IMG/VR virus record: IMGVR_UViG_3300042445_001485
Origin: a virus
Lineage: Duplodnaviria; Caudoviricetes
Reading direction: 5' to 3' (one strand)
Length of the DNA: 64,000 bases
The notes below the pieces were generated by a model. The model worked only from the letters and a program-made list of their open reading frames with translations. It searched no databases and had not been told where the DNA came from. This document shows positions 8,173-20,694 of the stretch, piece after piece (position 1 is the first letter of the stretch; every line of letters starts with the position of its first letter). Position numbers and translations under genes: made by a program.

Positions 8173-9270
8173 TTAGAACGTGTGACGCAAGCCAACTGCG
8201 GTGCGCTTTGTTACACCAGCGGTGGCTGTGGCACCTGCGGTGTTGGTGTCAGCATCACGAGTGTCAAAACGTGCATACAAGTTGGTTCTCTTGCTGAGTT
8301 CATGATCCACACCGTAACCAAGAATTTTCTTGTCTACATTGGCTGTGCTCTTTTCATTGCTGGAACCAGTTGACCACATGACGCTGGTAGCACCAACGGT
8401 GTACTTGGCACCAAACATTTGTCCAGTCTGGTCGATAGCGGTGGCTGTGTTTTGTTTTTCTGTCCAACGACCACCATACACAGTTGCGGCACCAATCTTG
8501 TAGTTGGCAGACAACATGCTGAGAGTGTTGTTGGTACCATCAGTCAAGGCCTGTGAACCAGTGGCAATGAATGATGCAGTGGTAGTGGCCAAAGTGCCTG
8601 ACTGCTCAATGCGTTGAGCGGCATACTGCACACTCACGGGACCATTGGCATATTTTACACCATAGTCAACCACACTCTGAGCATTGACGCTGGCACTTGG
8701 TGGCACATACAAATAAGAACCACTTACACCTGCCACTGCTGGAGACTCATAACGAATGGCTCCATTGAAGCGAGTAGGTGCAGATTGTGCTGTGTGAGTT
8801 GCTGTGGCACTGTAACGAGTAAAGATGTTACCGTTTGATCCATAACCTGAACCAATGGCTGTACCAAACACAGATCCGTTGCCCCAGGCATCTAGGATGT
8901 TGGAATTCACACGACCAAGTTTCACAGTGCCCCAATTGGCTTCTGTGCCTATAAAGGCTTCTTGACCCACACCCACAGTGCCTGCTGTGGTTGAGTTGTA
9001 TGTGGTGCCTTCAACTCCGGCACCATTGATGAAATCAGGTGTTAGTTGTAGTTTGAAATTGGCACGGAGTCCGCCGCCTAGATCATCTGTACCGGCAATG
9101 TTCAGCACCGTAGTGGCTGAATTATTGGCTGCAAGACCTTTGGTGTTGACACCAGTGGCTGCATTGGTAAACAACAGGCCGGTATCAACCAGGCCAGTGA
9201 TATTGACAGCACTTTGAGCAAACACAGAGGTGGCCGCAAGTGCAATCATGATTGCGAAGATTTTCTTCAT
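8173..9270 (-). CDS. Gram-negative trimeric porin (betaproteobacterial-type)
   Basis: Signal peptide MKKIFAIMIALAATSVFAQ, alternating beta-strands, RFNGAIRYESP, LSKRTNLYA and terminal VGLRHTF (C-terminal Phe). Confidence 0.93.
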   Translation of the reverse strand: MKKIFAIMIALAATSVFAQSAVNITGLVDTGLLFTNAATGVNTKGLAANNSATTVLNIAGTDDLGGGLRANFKLQLTPDFINGAGVEGTTYNSTTAGTVGVGQEAFIGTEANWGTVKLGRVNSNILDAWGNGSVFGTAIGSGYGSNGNIFTRYSATATHTAQSAPTRFNGAIRYESPAVAGVSGSYLYVPPSASVNAQSVVDYGVKYANGPVSVQYAAQRIEQSGTLATTTASFIATGSQALTDGTNNTLSMLSANYKIGAATVYGGRWTEKQNTATAIDQTGQMFGAKYTVGATSVMWSTGSSNEKSTANVDKKILGYGVDHELSKRTNLYARFDTRDADTNTAGATATAGVTKRTAVGLRHTF

Positions 9271-9317
9271 TGAGTTTTCCTTTTTAATAAAAATCATGGT
9301 CTTTCGATCCATGTGTT

Positions 9318-10929: not shown

Positions 10930-11115
10930 TAAGAGAAACCCGCCGAAGCGGGTTTCCTGAGTTTCTGTTACGAGGTATGTCTTACCCTAGGCTACTTTAC
11001 GCGGCCAATGCGAACTGTGAGTCGTTAGCGTTTACTTTTTTTGCTTGATTAACGGTCATCGCCTACCGAGCGCCATTACTTGTACTCTTGACCCAATCGA
11101 TCCTGTGTCAGGCCC
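10930..11115 (-). ncRNA. ssrA: tmRNA coding piece (permuted, two-piece ssrA)
   Basis: 5' GGGCCUG acceptor strand at 11115, D-loop analogue ACACAGGAUCGAU, PK1 (CGC/GCG, CGGU/ACCG), resume context GUAAAC-GCU-AAC-GAC, tag (A)ANDSQFALAA* at 11029-10997; 3' end approximate. Confidence 0.93.
10935..10956 (-). terminator. terminator hairpin at the 3' end of the tmRNA coding piece
   Basis: gaaacccgc-ttcg-gcgggtttc perfect 9-bp stem with UUCG loop (minus strand). Confidence 0.85.
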
Positions 11116-11116
11116 A

Positions 11117-11329
11117 TCATAAGAAAACTTCTTCACCGTGTTCATCGCATAAACTAATATAGTGTTTGTTAGGACCAACAAACTTATACATCAAGTGACC
11201 TTGCTCTTTGTCCCGCTTGGTAAGAACCAAGTAATGCACTTGACCAAATTGGTTGGGCACTTCTTGAAACTTCTCGCCGTGGAATACAGGCAATATCTCT
11301 CCGTCACTTGTTTTTACACAAATCTTCAC
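11117..11329 (-). CDS. 70-aa protein encoded inside the tmRNA intervening segment
   Basis: TAAGGA Shine-Dalgarno immediately after ACCA, GTG at 11329, open for 70 codons, TGA ends 1 nt before the coding-piece 5' G. Confidence 0.7.
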   Translation of the reverse strand: MKICVKTSDGEILPVFHGEKFQEVPNQFGQVHYLVLTKRDKEQGHLMYKFVGPNKHYISLCDEHGEEVFL

Positions 11330-11340
11330 AAACTTCCTTA

Positions 11341-11405
11341 TGGTGGACCTGGGCGGCACTGCCCCGCCGTCTTGAATCCTTTTCTCAGTAACAGTTTACG
11401 CTGTT
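11341..11405 (-). ncRNA. ssrA: tmRNA acceptor piece (permuted ssrA)
   Basis: GAC-GGCGG-GGCAGUG-CCGCC-CAGGUCC-ACCA; pairs with GGGCCUG giving G3:U70; GAUUCAA and CUGUUACU pair with the coding piece; 5' end estimated from the promoter. Confidence 0.92.
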
Positions 11406-11411
11406 CTTGTT

Positions 11412-11440
11412 ATTATATATTTATTTTGATTGCGTGTCAA
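11412..11440 (-). promoter_or_regulatory. sigma70 consensus promoter of the tmRNA locus
   Basis: TTGACA-N17-TATAAT. Confidence 0.9.
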
Positions 11441-11589
11441 CCTATTTGGTACTTGGGTTACATCTGGCTACTATTTTTTTGTTTTGAGCCCGGTATTCTT
11501 CTTGCTTTTGGGACCTGGCCTGCTCTATTTCCGTCACTCATTCTTCAACTCCAATGGACGCCAGACTGGATCGTAGGGTAAAGTCACTG

Positions 11590-12158: not shown

Positions 12159-12223
12159 TGGTTACGCAGGGTTAAGCACCCCCGGGTCTTGAATCCATTT
12201 TTATCTGCTTCATACAGCAATAA
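12159..12223 (-). pseudogene. partial second tmRNA acceptor piece
   Basis: ttattgct...ggattcaagacccgggggtgc mirrors the acceptor piece, but the T-arm and acceptor strand are broken. Confidence 0.55.
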
Positions 12224-12741: not shown

Positions 12742-13203
12742 TTATTTTCGACCAATGTCAACCGGTATACTCAATGCTTTTAATCGTTGCAATACCGCAG
12801 GCTTGATTTCCTCAGGGTAATCAATGATGTTTACCAGTTTGATGTATTGATTAGTAAAAGGAATCGCTTGTGCAATTCGTTCTTCTTCTTCTCCGGTTGC
12901 TGGTCCACCTGTATAACCCGGTAAGTTACTTTGCCAAGCATGACTTTGGACATTGGCTAGTTTTCTCACGGCTCGGCCATCAACTGTGATCATTACAGAG
13001 TTGGCAAGATCATTGAAATGGTACCAGTCTGGATTTCTTGTTAAACTTACATTACCGTAGTCACTATAATCAAAATCAGGATCAACATTGTCAGCACCGC
13101 TAACATCCAGCTTGCCACTGCGAACCATACCATTTAACCCTTGTGTAGTAGTTTTGTGGTAAAGTAGATCGGTTGATTCTGTTAGAATTTCATTTATACG
13201 CAT
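12742..13203 (-). CDS. ADP-ribosyltransferase-like fold protein (putative)
   Basis: LYHKT and VSLTR strands typical of ART folds; MRINEILTES N-terminus; TAAATA-N4-ATG. Confidence 0.5.
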   Translation of the reverse strand: MRINEILTESTDLLYHKTTTQGLNGMVRSGKLDVSGADNVDPDFDYSDYGNVSLTRNPDWYHFNDLANSVMITVDGRAVRKLANVQSHAWQSNLPGYTGGPATGEEEERIAQAIPFTNQYIKLVNIIDYPEEIKPAVLQRLKALSIPVDIGRK

Positions 13204-17528: not shown

Positions 17529-19037
17529 ATGGCTATTTCAACTCGTTTCCTTATTGATTTTCCTCTCACACCAAATCTTAGTATTACAGATACAGGTCAG
17601 GAAGGCATGCCGACCTACAACCATGATACCATTGATCGACGAATCAACGCTGTTGCGTCGGGCTTAACCCGTTTAAATTTTCCAGACAATAGTAGAATTA
17701 CAATTATAGATTATCTATCATATAATTTTGTTACATTCAACGTCGGCGTATACCGAGCCAGGCATACCATAGCACCGATTAATTTTAAACTTTCAGCCGA
17801 ACAGGTTGAACATTGTATTAGAGATTCGGGTTCTGTAATAGTTTTTTGCAATCAACATTTTACACATCTTGTACCACCTGGTATGAAATTTATTGTGTTT
17901 GATTCAACAGAATTCAATGATTTTTTAGGAGACGAGAATTTTATTCCCGTTCCACCTTCTACTAATTATGAAGATTTTGAAAATAGAAATGTAACAATGA
18001 TGTACACTTCGGGAACAACCGGTAATCCCAAAGGGGTAGTAAATAATTATAGAAATAGATTTTTTCAAATCAGCCGCGGAATTGACAATCCCATTGTCAA
18101 ATATAAACGATTGGTTTCGTTGGCTCCATTACCAATATATCATTTAGCAGGACTTAACAATATCGAGCAAGATATGTTTTTTAGTTATTCTGAAGAAACA
18201 CAGATTGTACTAATGCCACATTTTGATACTAAAAAATACATACAACACGTACAGGATTTTAAAATAACAAGATTGCGACTAGTCTCACCAATGATGGCTA
18301 TGGTTCTTCAAGAAACAGAATTACTAGAAAAAGCTGATTTTTCTCGCGTGGTAGGAATTGCATTAAACTCAAGTTTTGCTCCAAAGAAAATGCAAGATGA
18401 CATAAGAAAATACTTTAAAGATTTAAAATGGTTAGACAATCCCTACGGTTTAACGGAAACAGGTCCACTGTTTGGAAAAGAAAACCCCAGGAACTTGCCT
18501 AAACCGATGATGAGTGTGGGATATCCGCTGCCGGAGGTTAGTTGTCGTATTAACAAAGATAATGTACTCGAAGTTAAAGCACCAGCGTGTTTGTCTCAAT
18601 ACCATAATAGACCCGAGTTACAGACTTCGTTTACCGACGATGGATATTTTATCACAGGTGATTTATTTAGAGTTAACTATAATGGATTTTATTTTTACAT
18701 GGGTCGTGCCGATGACATGTTTAAAAGTGGTGGTGAAAAAATCTATCCATCTGAAATTGAACCAGTTATTGAACGCCACCCCGGTGTTGCGCTAAGTACG
18801 GTAGTGGGTGTAGAAGATGAAATCAAAGGGCATAAACCATATGCATTTGTAGAGCTCAAAATCGGAGCCAAAGCCACAGCCGAAGAAATTAAACAGTTTA
18901 CCATTGAAAATGTTGCAACATATCAAATTCCTCGTCGAGTATGGATTTTAGATTCATTGCCGAGAACCAACATAGGCAAGATTGATCGCAAAACATTAAA
19001 AAATCTTGCCATTGATCTTTTAAAGGAAAATACATGA
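17529..19037 (+). CDS. acyl-CoA synthetase / AMP-binding (ANL) enzyme
   Basis: YTSGTTGNPKG, YGLTETGP, TGDL, GRADDMFKSGGEKIYPSEIE, PRTNIGKIDR. Confidence 0.95.
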   Translation: MAISTRFLIDFPLTPNLSITDTGQEGMPTYNHDTIDRRINAVASGLTRLNFPDNSRITIIDYLSYNFVTFNVGVYRARHTIAPINFKLSAEQVEHCIRDSGSVIVFCNQHFTHLVPPGMKFIVFDSTEFNDFLGDENFIPVPPSTNYEDFENRNVTMMYTSGTTGNPKGVVNNYRNRFFQISRGIDNPIVKYKRLVSLAPLPIYHLAGLNNIEQDMFFSYSEETQIVLMPHFDTKKYIQHVQDFKITRLRLVSPMMAMVLQETELLEKADFSRVVGIALNSSFAPKKMQDDIRKYFKDLKWLDNPYGLTETGPLFGKENPRNLPKPMMSVGYPLPEVSCRINKDNVLEVKAPACLSQYHNRPELQTSFTDDGYFITGDLFRVNYNGFYFYMGRADDMFKSGGEKIYPSEIEPVIERHPGVALSTVVGVEDEIKGHKPYAFVELKIGAKATAEEIKQFTIENVATYQIPRRVWILDSLPRTNIGKIDRKTLKNLAIDLLKENT

Positions 19038-19804
19038 CATTTAACGCATGGGACACATTGGAAGGTAAAACTGCTGTGATAACCGGTGTTACCGGAGGAA
19101 TTGGGTTTGCTACCGCACAAAGACTTGCCAGACGCGGAGCCCGAATAATTGGTATAGTCAGAAGAAATTTAGAAGATGCACAGGCTAAATTAAACACATT
19201 ACCATGTAGTAGTAAAGAACCTCATCTAGCATTACTAGCAGATGTATCCAACAAGGTTCAACTACAAGAAGCAATTCTATCCATTGATCGTTGCGATATA
19301 TTGGTACAAAGCACTGGCAATACCAAAAGAATTCCACACGAAAAAATTCAGTTAATGACTGATACCTACTTTGATGAGATGACCAGAGATAACCTAAGAA
19401 GTTATTTTACTGTTATAAGGTCGTTTGAACCATTGCTGAGAAAAAGTCGAGAATCTGTCGTTGTCAATATTGGATCTGTTGCGGGCAATGCACACAGCGC
19501 CGGGGGCGGCAGCAATATTGCCTACTGTGCCGCCAAAGCCGGACTTGATGCATTGACTAGAAATTTATCCAAGGCATTAGCGCCAGACATTCGTGTGGTT
19601 GGTGTTAGTCCCGGTATAGTAGATACTACGTTTGTTACCAAGGCCATCGACAACTACCCTAATTTAGAGTCAATTGCCAATAGCACTCCACTTAAACGAA
19701 TTGCCACAGTAGAAGATATAGCGGCAAATGTAGAAGCTTTAACTACCTTAATGAGATATTCCACAGGCATTGTAATCTGTGTAGACGGAGGAAGAACCCT
19801 ATGA
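19034..19804 (+). CDS. short-chain dehydrogenase/reductase (SDR)
   Basis: TGVTGGIG Rossmann motif, YCAAK catalytic YxxxK, VSPG. Confidence 0.95.
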   Translation: MTFNAWDTLEGKTAVITGVTGGIGFATAQRLARRGARIIGIVRRNLEDAQAKLNTLPCSSKEPHLALLADVSNKVQLQEAILSIDRCDILVQSTGNTKRIPHEKIQLMTDTYFDEMTRDNLRSYFTVIRSFEPLLRKSRESVVVNIGSVAGNAHSAGGGSNIAYCAAKAGLDALTRNLSKALAPDIRVVGVSPGIVDTTFVTKAIDNYPNLESIANSTPLKRIATVEDIAANVEALTTLMRYSTGIVICVDGGRTL

Positions 19805-20694
19805 TCATCAGACCAGAAAAAACTATTATGACTTGCGCCATTACTGGCGCCATCACAGATCCCAATTCAACACCGTATTTGCCAATCAGTCCAGAAGAGA
19901 TAGCAGATAGTGCATTAGGTGCCGCAGAAGCAGGAGCCTCAATAGTGCATTTACATGTTAGAGATCCTGCAACTAAAATGGCCAGCATGAGCACCGAACT
20001 GTATATAAAAGTAGTTGAGATGATCAAAAAAGACAATCCAGATCTTATTATCAATTTGACCACAGGTCCTGGAGCACTATTTGTTCCCGGTGCTAGACTA
20101 TTGCAAGTTGGTGAAAAAAGTAGTGTCATGAGAAGTGCTAGACAGAGAACCGAACATATAACTGAAATTAGACCAGATATCTGTAGTTTTGATTTCAATA
20201 CCATGCATCATGGCGGACCAAGTATTCGTTTAAATTTTATGCCTGTGCTAAGAGAAATGGCAGTTATTATTAAAGAAGCAGGAACCAAACCTGAACTTGA
20301 ATGCTTTGACTCCGGAGATGTTAGAATTGCCATGCAGTTGCAAAAAGAAGGTTTAATTGAAGAACACCCGCTGTGGCAGTTTGCAATGGGTGTCAAATAT
20401 GGATGGGATAATACTCCCGAGGCATTAAACTATGCCCGATGTGCGATACCACACGGTTCGTTATGGTCGGCGTTTGGTATCAGTCGGGAAGAAATGCCAA
20501 TGGTGGCCAATACTTGGTTGTTAGGCGGGCATGTTAGGGTTGGTCTCGAAGACAACATTTACCTAAGTAAAAATGTGTTGGCAAAAACCAATGCTGAGTT
20601 AGTTACCAAAGGTCGTCGTGTTGTTGAGGATTTGGGTGGTCAGTTGGCCAACTATGCAGAAGCTAGGGCAATATTAAATCTCCCTAGCAAGTAA
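19801..20694 (+). CDS. beta-keto acid cleavage enzyme (BKACE / Kce / DUF849)
   Basis: TCAITGA, P-SPEEIA, AGASIVHLHVRD, GGHVRVGLEDN. Confidence 0.95.
   Translation: MIIRPEKTIMTCAITGAITDPNSTPYLPISPEEIADSALGAAEAGASIVHLHVRDPATKMASMSTELYIKVVEMIKKDNPDLIINLTTGPGALFVPGARLLQVGEKSSVMRSARQRTEHITEIRPDICSFDFNTMHHGGPSIRLNFMPVLREMAVIIKEAGTKPELECFDSGDVRIAMQLQKEGLIEEHPLWQFAMGVKYGWDNTPEALNYARCAIPHGSLWSAFGISREEMPMVANTWLLGGHVRVGLEDNIYLSKNVLAKTNAELVTKGRRVVEDLGGQLANYAEARAILNLPSK

What the first reader, a model, noticed from the sequence alone, without database searches (positions are those of the whole stretch)
10930..11440. Complete circularly permuted (two-piece) tmRNA carried by a phage
On the minus strand the order is: perfect sigma70 promoter (11440-11412), acceptor piece ending CAGGUCC-ACCA (11341), intervening segment, then coding piece starting GGGCCUG (11115), then terminator. 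The 7-bp acceptor stem has the alanyl-tRNA synthetase determinant G3:U70. The two pieces pair through UUGGGUC/GAUUCAA (11096-11090 with 11378-11372) and AGUAAUGG/CUGUUACU (11080-11073 with 11394-11387). PK1 is present and the tag reads (A)ANDSQFALAA*, ending in the ClpXP-type LAA. Permuted tmRNAs are established in Alphaproteobacteria, some Betaproteobacteria and some cyanobacteria. A phage copy implies the phage supplies its own ribosome rescue. No smpB is seen in this window.
Basis: partly seen in the sequence, partly recalled or inferred. Interest (0 to 1): 0.85.

Follow-up and report, generated by a model that had tools for sequence, protein, structure and literature searches.

The report
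Phage two-piece tmRNA with nested gene
An uncultured lake-water phage carries a complete split (two-piece) tmRNA gene for rescuing stalled ribosomes, which is a known kind of phage cargo. The unusual part is that the spacer cut out during its maturation holds a real 70-codon protein gene, one of many swappable small genes found at that spot in related phages.

Summary
Window 10930-11440 (minus strand) is a complete circularly permuted tmRNA gene: Rfam tmRNA_permuted scores 113.5 bits against a cut-off of 47 (E 2e-21). It has a 12/12 sigma-70 promoter, an acceptor stem with G3:U70 and encoded CCA, helices joining the two pieces with compensatory changes in relatives, the tag ANDSQFALAA, and a terminator hairpin. 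The DNA is phage. No SmpB gene is in the window or in three complete 323-374 kb relatives, so host SmpB is needed.

Phage two-piece tmRNAs are already published (PMC9004378, PMC7162821), so the tmRNA alone is a new member of a known kind.

The less ordinary point is that the 225-nt intervening segment is filled end to end by a 70-aa gene. An 11-bp closing stem hides its ribosome-binding site. The gene is under purifying selection (dN/dS 0.05-0.08) and has free-standing homologues in other phages. In 118 related viral tmRNA loci, 25 carry such genes from 14 unrelated families, two of them Pfam families. The same cassette occurs in different tmRNA backbones, and one backbone can hold different cassettes. 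I found no paper describing this. Other follow-ups of this scan reported the same layout on other phage DNA. Processing, translation and tagging remain untested.

The parts
11412..11440 (-). Sigma-70 promoter TTGACA-17 nt-TATAAT. The start of transcription is inferred near 11405.
   Evidence: 12 of 12 consensus matches. Sequence.
11341..11405 (-). Acceptor piece: 5' strands of helices P2c/P2b/P2a, T-arm (stem 11368-11364 / 11356-11352, loop GGCAGUG), 3' acceptor strand CAGGUCC (11351-11345), encoded ACCA (11344-11341).
   Evidence: Rfam alignment. The T stem changes GC<->CG at two pairs in 75 relatives. The 5' end is inferred from the promoter.
11116..11340 (-). Intervening segment (225 nt), removed when the two pieces mature. 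Here it is a gene cassette.
   Evidence: Insert between model positions. It is 95% identical to L017 and L018, whose tmRNA flanks are only 69-78% identical.
11330..11340 (-). 5' strand of the closing stem, UAAGGAAGUUU. It contains the Shine-Dalgarno AAGGAAG (11339-11333).
   Evidence: It pairs over 11 bp with 11130-11120. SD-like 5' strands go with the presence of an ORF across 75 spacers, Fisher p = 3e-7.
11120..11130 (-). 3' strand of the closing stem, AAGUUUUCUUA. It also encodes the C-terminal residues ..VFL. It is followed by the stop UGA (11119-11117) and one leader base before the RNase P site.
   Evidence: All 75 distinct spacers have a covarying closing stem that ends 3-6 nt (mostly 4 nt) before the mature 5' end.
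11117..11329 (-). Nested gene: GTG start, 70 aa, TGA stop (protein P0001). A small all-beta protein of unknown function.
   Evidence: dN/dS is 0.05-0.08 against the nested copies in L017 and L018, and 0.26 against the free-standing L020. Free-standing homologues sit in phage operons. AF2 pLDDT is 88 with no fold match. No Pfam or PHROG hit.
10957..11115 (-). Coding piece: 5' acceptor strand GGGCCUG (11115-11109), D-region, 3' strands of P2a (11096-11090), P2b (11080-11073) and P2c (11072-11069), PK1 hairpin (11068-11053), tag frame, and a 3' hairpin region.
   Evidence: Rfam alignments. Covariation.
10997..11029 (-). Tag reading frame: resume codon GCU, then ANDSQFALAA, then UAA.
   Evidence: The same tag is the commonest in the phage family, 22 of 75 distinct sequences.
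10931..10956 (-). Terminator-like hairpin, GAAACCCGC-UUCG-GCGGGUUUC, then UCUU.
   Evidence: 9-bp hairpin in the MFE fold. Not called by the consensus scan.
12176..12223 (-). Degenerate second copy of an acceptor piece, of the UUAUUGCUGUAUGAAGC type seen in L017, L018 and L013. It lacks a strand able to pair with GGGCCUG. Probably a relic of tmRNA gene turnover.
   Evidence: 79% identity over 44-48 nt to the acceptor pieces of L017, L018 and L029. Sequence.

Best explanation
This is a working ssrA gene of a large lake-water phage, in the circularly permuted (two-piece) form.

**tmRNA maturation and action.** A consensus sigma-70 promoter lets host RNA polymerase transcribe one precursor: acceptor piece, a 225-nt intervening segment, the coding piece, then a terminator. 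Host RNase P is inferred to cut at 11116|11115, and 3' trimming to stop at the encoded CCA (11341). The two pieces stay joined through the acceptor stem and helices P2a-c. Host alanyl-tRNA synthetase (via G3:U70) and host SmpB would then let the RNA enter stalled ribosomes. It would add (A)ANDSQFALAA, marking the proteins for proteolysis and freeing the ribosomes during infection.

**The cut-out segment.** This segment is not waste. It is a hairpin whose 11-bp closing stem holds the Shine-Dalgarno sequence on one strand and the last codons on the other. Its loop is a complete 70-codon gene. The precursor, or the excised segment, therefore also serves as a small mRNA.

**The slot in relatives.** In related phages the same stem-closed slot holds many unrelated small genes. 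These are exchanged between tmRNA backbones, probably by recombination through the shared ends.

**Shown here:** the gene's anatomy, its family membership, covariation, selection on the nested gene, the mosaic pattern, and the absence of SmpB.

**Inferred, not shown:** processing sites, charging, tagging, translation of the nested gene, and the exchange mechanism.
For: **Identity and structure.**
- RF04321 scores 113.5 bits, E 2e-21, over the full model.
- The promoter matches 12 of 12.
- G3:U70, the encoded CCA and the tag frame are read directly.
- Compensatory changes occur in the T stem, P2a, P2b, P2c and the PK1 hairpin across 75 distinct relatives.
- The tag ANDSQFALAA is shared with 22 of 75 relatives, and all tags end LAA, MAA, VA or similar.

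**Phage context.**
- PHROG hits include ribonucleotide reductase, endonuclease, endolysin and a virion protein.
- The 496-aa protein matches only phages, such as Pelagibacter phage Mosig and jumbo phages.
- Relatives of the tmRNA lie in terminal-repeat-complete viral genomes of 323-374 kb.
- The 21-nt 5' motif of the coding piece hits more than 119 viral contigs. It hits only 2 of 185,579 bacterial species genomes, and neither hit is a tmRNA by Rfam.

**Nested gene.**
- SD, GTG start and a stop 1 nt before the mature 5' end.
- dN/dS is 0.05-0.08 between nested copies, p = 1e-4 to 4e-6.
- Free-standing homologues, 64-82% identical, sit in tightly packed phage operons.

**Slot.**
- All 21 distinct spacers of 121 nt or more with a readable stop hold an end-to-end ORF.
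- 25 of 118 loci carry one, from 14 families.
- Two of these ORFs pass Pfam cut-offs: DUF2061 at 72.6 bits and DUF6356 at 39.3 bits.
- 15 of 15 tested loci are full RF04321 hits.

**Mosaic.**
- Window against L017: acceptor piece 71%, spacer 95%, coding piece 78% identity.
- Window against L012: 90%, 25%, 91%.
- L048, L060, L078 and L124 share a 100% identical acceptor piece but carry four different cassettes.

**Occurrence in public data.**
- The locus recurs in 17 other lake-water metagenome studies.
- One RNA-library contig spans the whole spacer. Another joins the same flanks across a short spacer.
Against: - There is no direct evidence of processing, alanylation, tagging or translation. 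The RNA-library data are assembled contigs, which show no ends and may include DNA.
- ARAGORN does not call the gene.
- The T-loop GGCAGUG is non-canonical. It resembles the alphaproteobacterial consensus GGCGGUA.
- The second stem of PK1 is only 3 bp.
- The beta-type Rfam model does not report the window itself, although it does report its closest short-spacer relatives.
- No SmpB is present in the phage lineage.
- The closing stem sequesters the ribosome-binding site, so translation may be inefficient or conditional.
- The host is unknown.
Confidence: 0.8

Rival explanations
1. The tmRNA gene is a relic or decoy. Insertion of a gene into its spacer, or the odd T-loop, has stopped it working in ribosome rescue. 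It persists only as a strong promoter and processing scaffold for the nested gene, or as an inhibitor of host trans-translation, as reported for the CDS-less tmRNA of mycobacteriophage DS6A (mentioned in PMC11915505).
For: - ARAGORN misses it.
- The T-loop is non-canonical.
- The PK1 second stem is weak.
- No phage SmpB is found.
- A clearly degenerate acceptor-piece copy lies 800 bp away, showing that such genes do decay here.
Against: - Every modelled element is intact, and the model is matched end to end.
- The helices keep pairing through compensatory changes, and the tag frame is conserved with protease-type ends across 75 distinct relatives, with or without a cassette.
- The same T-loop type is the consensus of the alphaproteobacterial model. 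From prior knowledge, alphaproteobacterial two-piece tmRNAs work (Keiler et al. 2000, cited in PMC9004378).
Confidence: 0.08
2. The locus is host DNA. It would be a bacterial ssrA gene on a mis-binned bacterial contig or at a prophage junction, since tmRNA genes are common integration sites. In that case no phage 'carries' it.
For: - tmRNA genes are known integration targets, and prophages often carry fragments of them (PMC9004378, PMC4383910 abstract).
- A host-like porin gene lies 2 kb away.
Against: - The gene is complete, with its own promoter and terminator. It is not a 3' fragment.
- Both flanks are phage-like small genes, and base composition is even.
- Relatives sit inside complete viral genomes with terminal repeats.
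- The 5' motif of the coding piece is almost absent from 185,579 bacterial species genomes.
- The window's structural-type protein matches only phages.
Confidence: 0.02
3. The 70-codon frame in the spacer is not expressed from the tmRNA transcript. It is a recently captured gene fragment whose conservation reflects recent transfer only. The spacer acts purely as an RNA hairpin for processing.
For: - Nested copies are only about 5% diverged.
- The start is GTG.
- The ribosome-binding site is locked in an 11-bp stem.
- There are no expression data with read ends.
Against: - Between nested copies, synonymous changes outnumber replacements by far (8-10 against 2.5-3; dN/dS 0.05-0.08).
- A second, much more diverged nested lineage (L124) still has dN/dS of 0.24.
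- SD-like stems occur with ORFs and not in non-coding spacers (p = 3e-7).
- Other nested ORFs belong to Pfam families.
Confidence: 0.1

Closest known systems
Two-piece (circularly permuted) tmRNA of Alphaproteobacteria, a betaproteobacterial lineage and some cyanobacteria (Rfam RF01849, RF01850, RF01851, merged as RF04321; Keiler et al. 2000 and Sharkady & Williams 2004 as cited in PMC9004378; PMC11915505)
   Same: - Gene order: acceptor piece, intervening sequence, coding piece.
- Acceptor stem with G3:U70 and encoded CCA.
- Helices holding the two pieces together.
- An Ala resume codon and a tag ending in LAA.
- The nearest short-spacer relatives score 107-114 bits on the beta model.
- The T-loop resembles the alpha consensus.
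   Different: - It is carried by a phage.
- Its 5' coding-piece motif is almost absent from bacterial genomes.
- Its spacer is 225 nt and protein-coding.
- No cognate smpB lies in the same genome.
Published phage-encoded two-piece tmRNAs: OM43 phage Melnitz and pelagimyophages (PMC9004378); tmRNAs of huge phages (PMC7162821)
   Same: - A complete permuted ssrA in aquatic T4-like or large myophages, behind an early-type promoter.
- The window's virion-type protein has its best cultured match in Pelagibacter phage Mosig.
   Different: - Those reports describe no protein gene in the spacer. Melnitz instead has a glutamine riboswitch in the 3' domain.
- They relied on ARAGORN, which is blind to this T-loop lineage.
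- No GenBank phage record matches this locus by blastn.
Unusual insertions in tmRNA genes listed in the 2025 tmRNA database paper (PMC11915505): a tRNA-Ala gene in one intervening sequence, a repetitive element in another, and group I introns (some with homing endonuclease genes) in the T-loop
   Same: Foreign genetic material sits in a part of the tmRNA precursor that is removed before the RNA functions.
   Different: - Here the insert is an ordinary small protein gene with SD, start and stop framed by the spacer's closing stem.
- It recurs with 14 gene families.
- It is released, by inference, through tRNA-type end processing rather than self-splicing.
Intervening sequences of bacterial 23S rRNA that carry an ORF (S23p family; Coxiella, Leptospira).
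   Same: A stem-closed segment excised from a stable-RNA precursor contains a protein-coding frame.
   Different: - A different host RNA and a different processing enzyme (RNase III).
- One ORF family rather than an exchangeable set.
- Bacterial rather than phage.

Membership tests
Permuted (two-piece) tmRNA, Rfam RF04321 | Covariance-model score above the curated gathering cut-off, over the full model | tested here: met
   113.5 bits against a cut-off of 47, E 2.3e-21, model positions 1-213.
Permuted (two-piece) tmRNA, Rfam RF04321 | Circular permutation: the 3' acceptor/T-arm half lies upstream of the 5' acceptor/tag half in one transcription unit | tested here: met
   The order on the minus strand is promoter 11440, CCA end 11341, GGGCCUG 11115, terminator about 10935.
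Permuted (two-piece) tmRNA, Rfam RF04321 | 7-bp acceptor stem with the G3:U70 alanine identity pair and a 3' CCA | tested here: met
   GGGCCUG (11115-11109) pairs with CAGGUCC (11351-11345), with G:U at the third pair. ACCA is encoded at 11344-11341.
Permuted (two-piece) tmRNA, Rfam RF04321 | T-arm | tested here: met
   The 5-bp stem pairs in 75 of 75 relatives, with GC<->CG swaps at two pairs. The loop GGCAGUG is non-canonical and close to the alpha-model consensus GGCGGUA.
Permuted (two-piece) tmRNA, Rfam RF04321 | Helices (P2) that hold the acceptor and coding pieces together | tested here: met
   P2a, P2b and P2c all show compensatory changes among relatives. P2b energy alone is not above shuffles.
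Permuted (two-piece) tmRNA, Rfam RF04321 | Tag reading frame with an Ala resume codon, a hydrophobic protease-type C-terminus and a stop | tested here: met
   GCU at 11029, frame ANDSQFALAA, UAA at 10999-10997. It is the commonest tag in the family.
Permuted (two-piece) tmRNA, Rfam RF04321 | Pseudoknot PK1 just upstream of the resume codon | tested here: inconclusive
   The first stem (11068-11065 with 11056-11053) covaries. The candidate second stem is only GAU/AUC. Other family members have differently built, larger structures at this position.
Permuted (two-piece) tmRNA, Rfam RF04321 | Precursor is processed into two RNAs; the RNA is alanylated and tags proteins | not testable with these tools
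   Only assembled contigs of RNA libraries were available, and these show no ends.
tmRNA-SmpB system | A cognate SmpB protein encoded in the same genome | tested here: not met
   No PF01668 hit in five related viral records, three of them terminal-repeat-complete. tblastn of two bacterial SmpB proteins against the window gives nothing. The rest of this phage's genome could not be searched. Host SmpB is presumably used.
Betaproteobacterial subtype, Rfam RF01850 | Score above the 84-bit cut-off on the beta model | tested here: inconclusive
   The window reports only the alpha model within the clan. Its closest relatives L012, L014 and L015 (84-94% identical mature parts) score 107-114 bits on RF01850.
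Bacteriophage genome | Phage gene content, and relatives in complete viral genomes | tested here: met
   PHROG hits. Phage-only matches of a 496-aa protein. Relatives lie in complete 323-374 kb viral records. No capsid, portal or terminase gene was identified inside this window.
Protein-coding gene (nested ORF 11329-11117) | Start with a ribosome-binding site, an intact frame, purifying selection, and homologues elsewhere | tested here: met
   AAGGAAG-N3-GTG. dN/dS 0.05-0.26. Free-standing homologues in phage operons. Expression was not tested.

The most novel reading that the evidence does not exclude
In a largely phage-specific lineage of permuted tmRNA genes, the stem-closed intervening segment is a modular expression slot. 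Unrelated small protein genes are swapped in and out through the conserved ends (acceptor-stem halves plus the closing stem). tRNA-type processing by RNase P and 3' trimming releases each as a minimal, hairpin-closed mRNA. One strongly transcribed precursor would then yield both a ribosome-rescue RNA and a messenger, with translation and tmRNA folding competing on the same molecule.
Probability: 0.45. Interest if true: 0.8.

Novelty: new variant of a known kind. Interest (0 to 1): 0.62.

Why it matters
The tmRNA alone adds one more aquatic phage to a known list. Three further points matter more.

1. **A blind spot in surveys.** A large family of lake-phage tmRNAs is invisible to ARAGORN, the tool used in the published phage surveys. 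Phage tmRNAs are therefore probably undercounted.
2. **The spacer codes for proteins.** The spacer of permuted tmRNA genes has been treated as discarded RNA. In these phages it repeatedly encodes selected proteins. This gives a natural case in which a stable-RNA precursor is also an mRNA, and a compact, portable expression cassette bounded by processing sites.
3. **Visible gene exchange.** The cassette/backbone mosaics show small phage genes being exchanged at a defined, structured site.

These points make several questions directly testable: how tmRNA precursors are processed, whether excised spacers are translated, and what phages gain from bringing their own tmRNA.

Tried and rejected
- **ARAGORN on the window.** No gene was called. 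I reject this as evidence against the gene, because ARAGORN misses every GGCAGUG T-loop relative whatever the spacer length, yet finds L017 and L018 with the same spacer.
- **blastn of the locus against 50,697 GenBank phages.** No match.
- **Whole-genome search.** No genome is held for this window.
- **Neighbour-gene relatives.** Only distant hits, of no use.
- **Exact 33-mer of the coding piece in bacterial genomes.** Nothing found. The looser 21-mer gave two bacterial loci, neither a tmRNA by Rfam. The donor or host lineage could therefore not be named.
- **Thermodynamic folding of the two pieces.** It recovers the acceptor stem, T-arm, closing stem and terminator but not the P2 helices. The P2b duplex energy equals that of shuffles. 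Covariation was used instead.
- **Function of the 70-aa protein.** No result from Pfam or PHROGs, an exhaustive profile search (4 clusters only), or Foldseek against PDB and AFDB. The function stays unknown.
- **RNA-library contigs.** They cannot show ends, strand or expression level. Parts without cover mean nothing.
- **The 139-aa ORF on the plus strand (11162-11581).** Rejected as the antisense shadow of the nested gene. It runs over the tmRNA acceptor piece and promoter. A similar antisense frame accompanies the free-standing homologue in L020.
- **The first script for SmpB.** It picked wrong frames and was redone.
- **Sharkady & Williams 2004.** The paper could not be read.
Full report
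**1. Observation**

Rfam's covariance models place a full-length permuted tmRNA on the minus strand. RF04321 covers 10997-11402 at 113.5 bits (cut-off 47, E 2.3e-21), and RF01849 covers 10953-11444 at 73.7 bits.
- TTGACA-17-TATAAT at 11440-11412, 12 of 12 matches.
- An acceptor piece ending CAGGUCC-ACCA at 11341.
- A coding piece starting GGGCCUG at 11115.
- G3:U70 in the 7-bp acceptor stem.
- Resume codon GCU at 11029, and the frame ANDSQFALAA-UAA ending at 10997.
- A 9-bp GC-rich hairpin at 10956-10935 followed by UCUU. The simple terminator scan does not call it.

ARAGORN reports nothing. This is not a contradiction. ARAGORN also misses L010, L012, L013, L014 and L015, which have spacers of 27-115 nt and the same T-loop GGCAGUG. 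It does call L017 and L018, which have the same 225-nt spacer but a canonical T-loop.

**2. Structure tested by comparison**

An exact 25-mer of the T-arm/acceptor end found 8 viral contigs. A 21-nt motif of the coding-piece 5' end found more than 119. From these I extracted 75 distinct tmRNAs.
- **T stem.** It pairs in all 75, with GC<->CG swaps at two positions.
- **P2a (11378-11372 with 11096-11090).** It shows AU<->GC and GC<->UA changes.
It is not distinguishable from shuffles by energy. It is supported by double compensatory changes in the window's own subclass..ACU/AGU.. in the window..AUC/GAU.. in L012 and L014..AUU/AAU.. in L073.
- **P2c (AGCG 11402-11399 with CGCU 11072-11069).** This further helix corresponds to GACUGU/ACAGUC, UGCUGU/ACAGCA and GGUUGU/ACAACU in other subclasses.
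- **PK1.** The hairpin (11068-11053) covaries, but the second stem is only 3 bp. 'PK1 present' is therefore only partly confirmed.
- **Tag.** The window's tag is the commonest in the family, 22 of 75.

**3. It is phage DNA, and the lineage is mostly viral**

The window encodes ribonucleotide reductase subunits, a DNA ligase, an endonuclease, an endolysin-like protein and a virion-type protein, all with PHROG hits. The 496-aa protein matches only phages, best Pelagibacter phage Mosig and then several jumbo phages. Relatives of the tmRNA lie in viral records of 300-374 kb, three of them complete with terminal repeats.

The 33-mer at the start of the coding piece is absent from 185,579 bacterial species genomes. 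The 21-nt motif hits two, and neither is a tmRNA by Rfam. The locus is held by 17 other lake-water metagenome studies.

SmpB is absent from five related viral records. tblastn with two bacterial SmpB proteins does not find it in the window. The RNA must therefore rely on host SmpB.

**4. What is known**

Phage two-piece tmRNAs are published. Phage Melnitz and pelagimyophages carry them, and 53 ARAGORN-called two-piece tmRNAs were counted among 18,146 phage genomes (PMC9004378). Huge phages carry tmRNAs and sometimes SmpB (PMC7162821). As a phage-borne permuted tmRNA the finding is thus a new member of a known kind.

**5. The intervening segment**

The 225 nt between CCA and G1 (11340-11116) contain AAGGAAG-N3-GTG, 70 codons, and a TGA that ends one base before the RNase P site. 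The first 11 nt (UAAGGAAGUUU) pair with 11130-11120 (AAGUUUUCUUA). The ribosome-binding site and the last codons therefore form the closing stem, and the gene is its loop.

The protein has free-standing homologues in tightly packed operons of other phage contigs. L020 is 81% identical and L008 is 64% identical. Copies nested in a tmRNA occur in L017, L018 and L029. A diverged nested copy occurs in L124. Selection is purifying:
- dN/dS is 0.08 and 0.05 between the window and the nested copies L017 and L018.
- It is 0.24 against L124.
- It is 0.26 against L020.

The model structure is a small beta protein (pLDDT 88) with no significant fold or family match. Its function is unknown.

**6. A general slot**

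All 75 distinct spacers have a covarying closing stem of 3-14 bp (8 bp or more in most). It begins at or near the first spacer base and ends 3-6 nt, mostly 4 nt, before G1, usually leaving UGAU or UAAU.
- Every distinct spacer of 121 nt or more with a readable stop (21 of them) holds an end-to-end ORF.
- 25 of 118 loci carry such an ORF, from 14 families of 37-123 aa.
- SD-like 5' strands go with ORF presence (Fisher p = 3e-7).
- Pairs of nested ORFs give dN/dS of 0.10-0.15.
- Two nested ORFs pass Pfam cut-offs: DUF2061 at 72.6 bits and DUF6356 at 39.3 bits.
- Fifteen of fifteen such loci are full RF04321 hits.

Cassettes and backbones are mosaic:
- Window against L017: 71% (acceptor), 95% (spacer), 78% (coding).
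- Window against L012: 90%, 25%, 91%.
- L048, L060, L078 and L124 have identical acceptor pieces and four different cassettes.

In alignment A1 the high identity starts exactly at CCAGGUCCACCA and stops at GGGCCUG. One RNA-library contig joins the window's flanks across a 42-letter replacement of the spacer region. Another spans the whole coding spacer. These are contigs only, so they give no information on ends.

The 2025 tmRNA database paper lists a tRNA-Ala gene and a repeat element as spacer oddities, but no protein gene (PMC11915505). My literature searches found no description of coding spacers. Earlier follow-ups of this scan reported the same layout on other phage DNA, and the same reader noted the nested gene here. 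I re-derived it independently from this window.

**7. Mechanism**

Shown here: the anatomy, family membership, covariation, selection, mosaicism and lack of SmpB.

Inferred:
- Host RNA polymerase transcribes the unit early in infection.
- RNase P and 3' trimming release the two pieces and the spacer.
- Host alanyl-tRNA synthetase and SmpB make the RNA active in trans-translation.
- The nested gene is translated from the precursor or from the excised spacer once the closing stem opens.
- A ribosome terminating at 11119-11117 would cover the 5' acceptor strand. Translation and tRNA-like folding of one molecule should therefore exclude each other.
- Cassette exchange probably uses the roughly 25-30 nt of shared sequence at each end.

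**8. Verdict**

The tmRNA alone is ordinary for aquatic large phages. The coding, exchangeable spacer makes the locus a new variant of a known kind.

Noticed in passing
window 12176-12223 (-): A degenerate second acceptor piece lies between two small genes. It has the UUAUUGCUGUAUGAAGC 5' part typical of another tmRNA subclass (L017, L018, L013), then GGAUUCAAGAC and a damaged T-arm. No strand can pair with GGGCCUG. It looks like a relic of tmRNA gene replacement.
   Followed up: partly
L015:8155-8451 (its 115-nt spacer): The spacer of this related tmRNA encodes ..[29 protein letters not shown].., an Oxidored-like CCxxGCxxCVW motif. It has no start codon inside the spacer, and the frame runs on into both mature pieces.
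   Followed up: no
L010, L012, L013, L014, L015 and others: ARAGORN misses every member of the GGCAGUG T-loop phage tmRNA lineage. ARAGORN-based surveys of phage tmRNAs therefore undercount them.
   Followed up: partly
L075, L048 and L065 nested ORFs; window 12742-13203 (-): Several larger nested proteins begin MRI(N/K/T)E(I/L) or MKISEL. This resembles the N-terminus MRINEILTE of the free-standing window gene at 13203. The shared leader might be a targeting or cleavage signal.
   Followed up: no
window 8173-9312 (-): A complete Gram-negative porin gene (Pfam Porin_4, 107.7 bits) lies inside the phage DNA. It hints at a betaproteobacterial-type host.
   Followed up: no
window 17529-20694 (+): A plus-strand block among minus-strand genes starts with an AMP-binding acyl-CoA ligase-like gene (Pfam 134.7 bits). 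It looks like a metabolic insert.
   Followed up: no
window 10964-11068, run X21: Very deep contigs (word depth up to about 3000) from a lake-water metatranscriptome match the conserved tag region at 90-99% identity. Related tmRNAs seem abundant in lake RNA. The source organisms were not resolved.
   Followed up: no
L014 and L015 flanks: In related phages the tmRNA sits next to arrays of 10-20 tRNA genes. This window has no tRNA gene at all.
   Followed up: no
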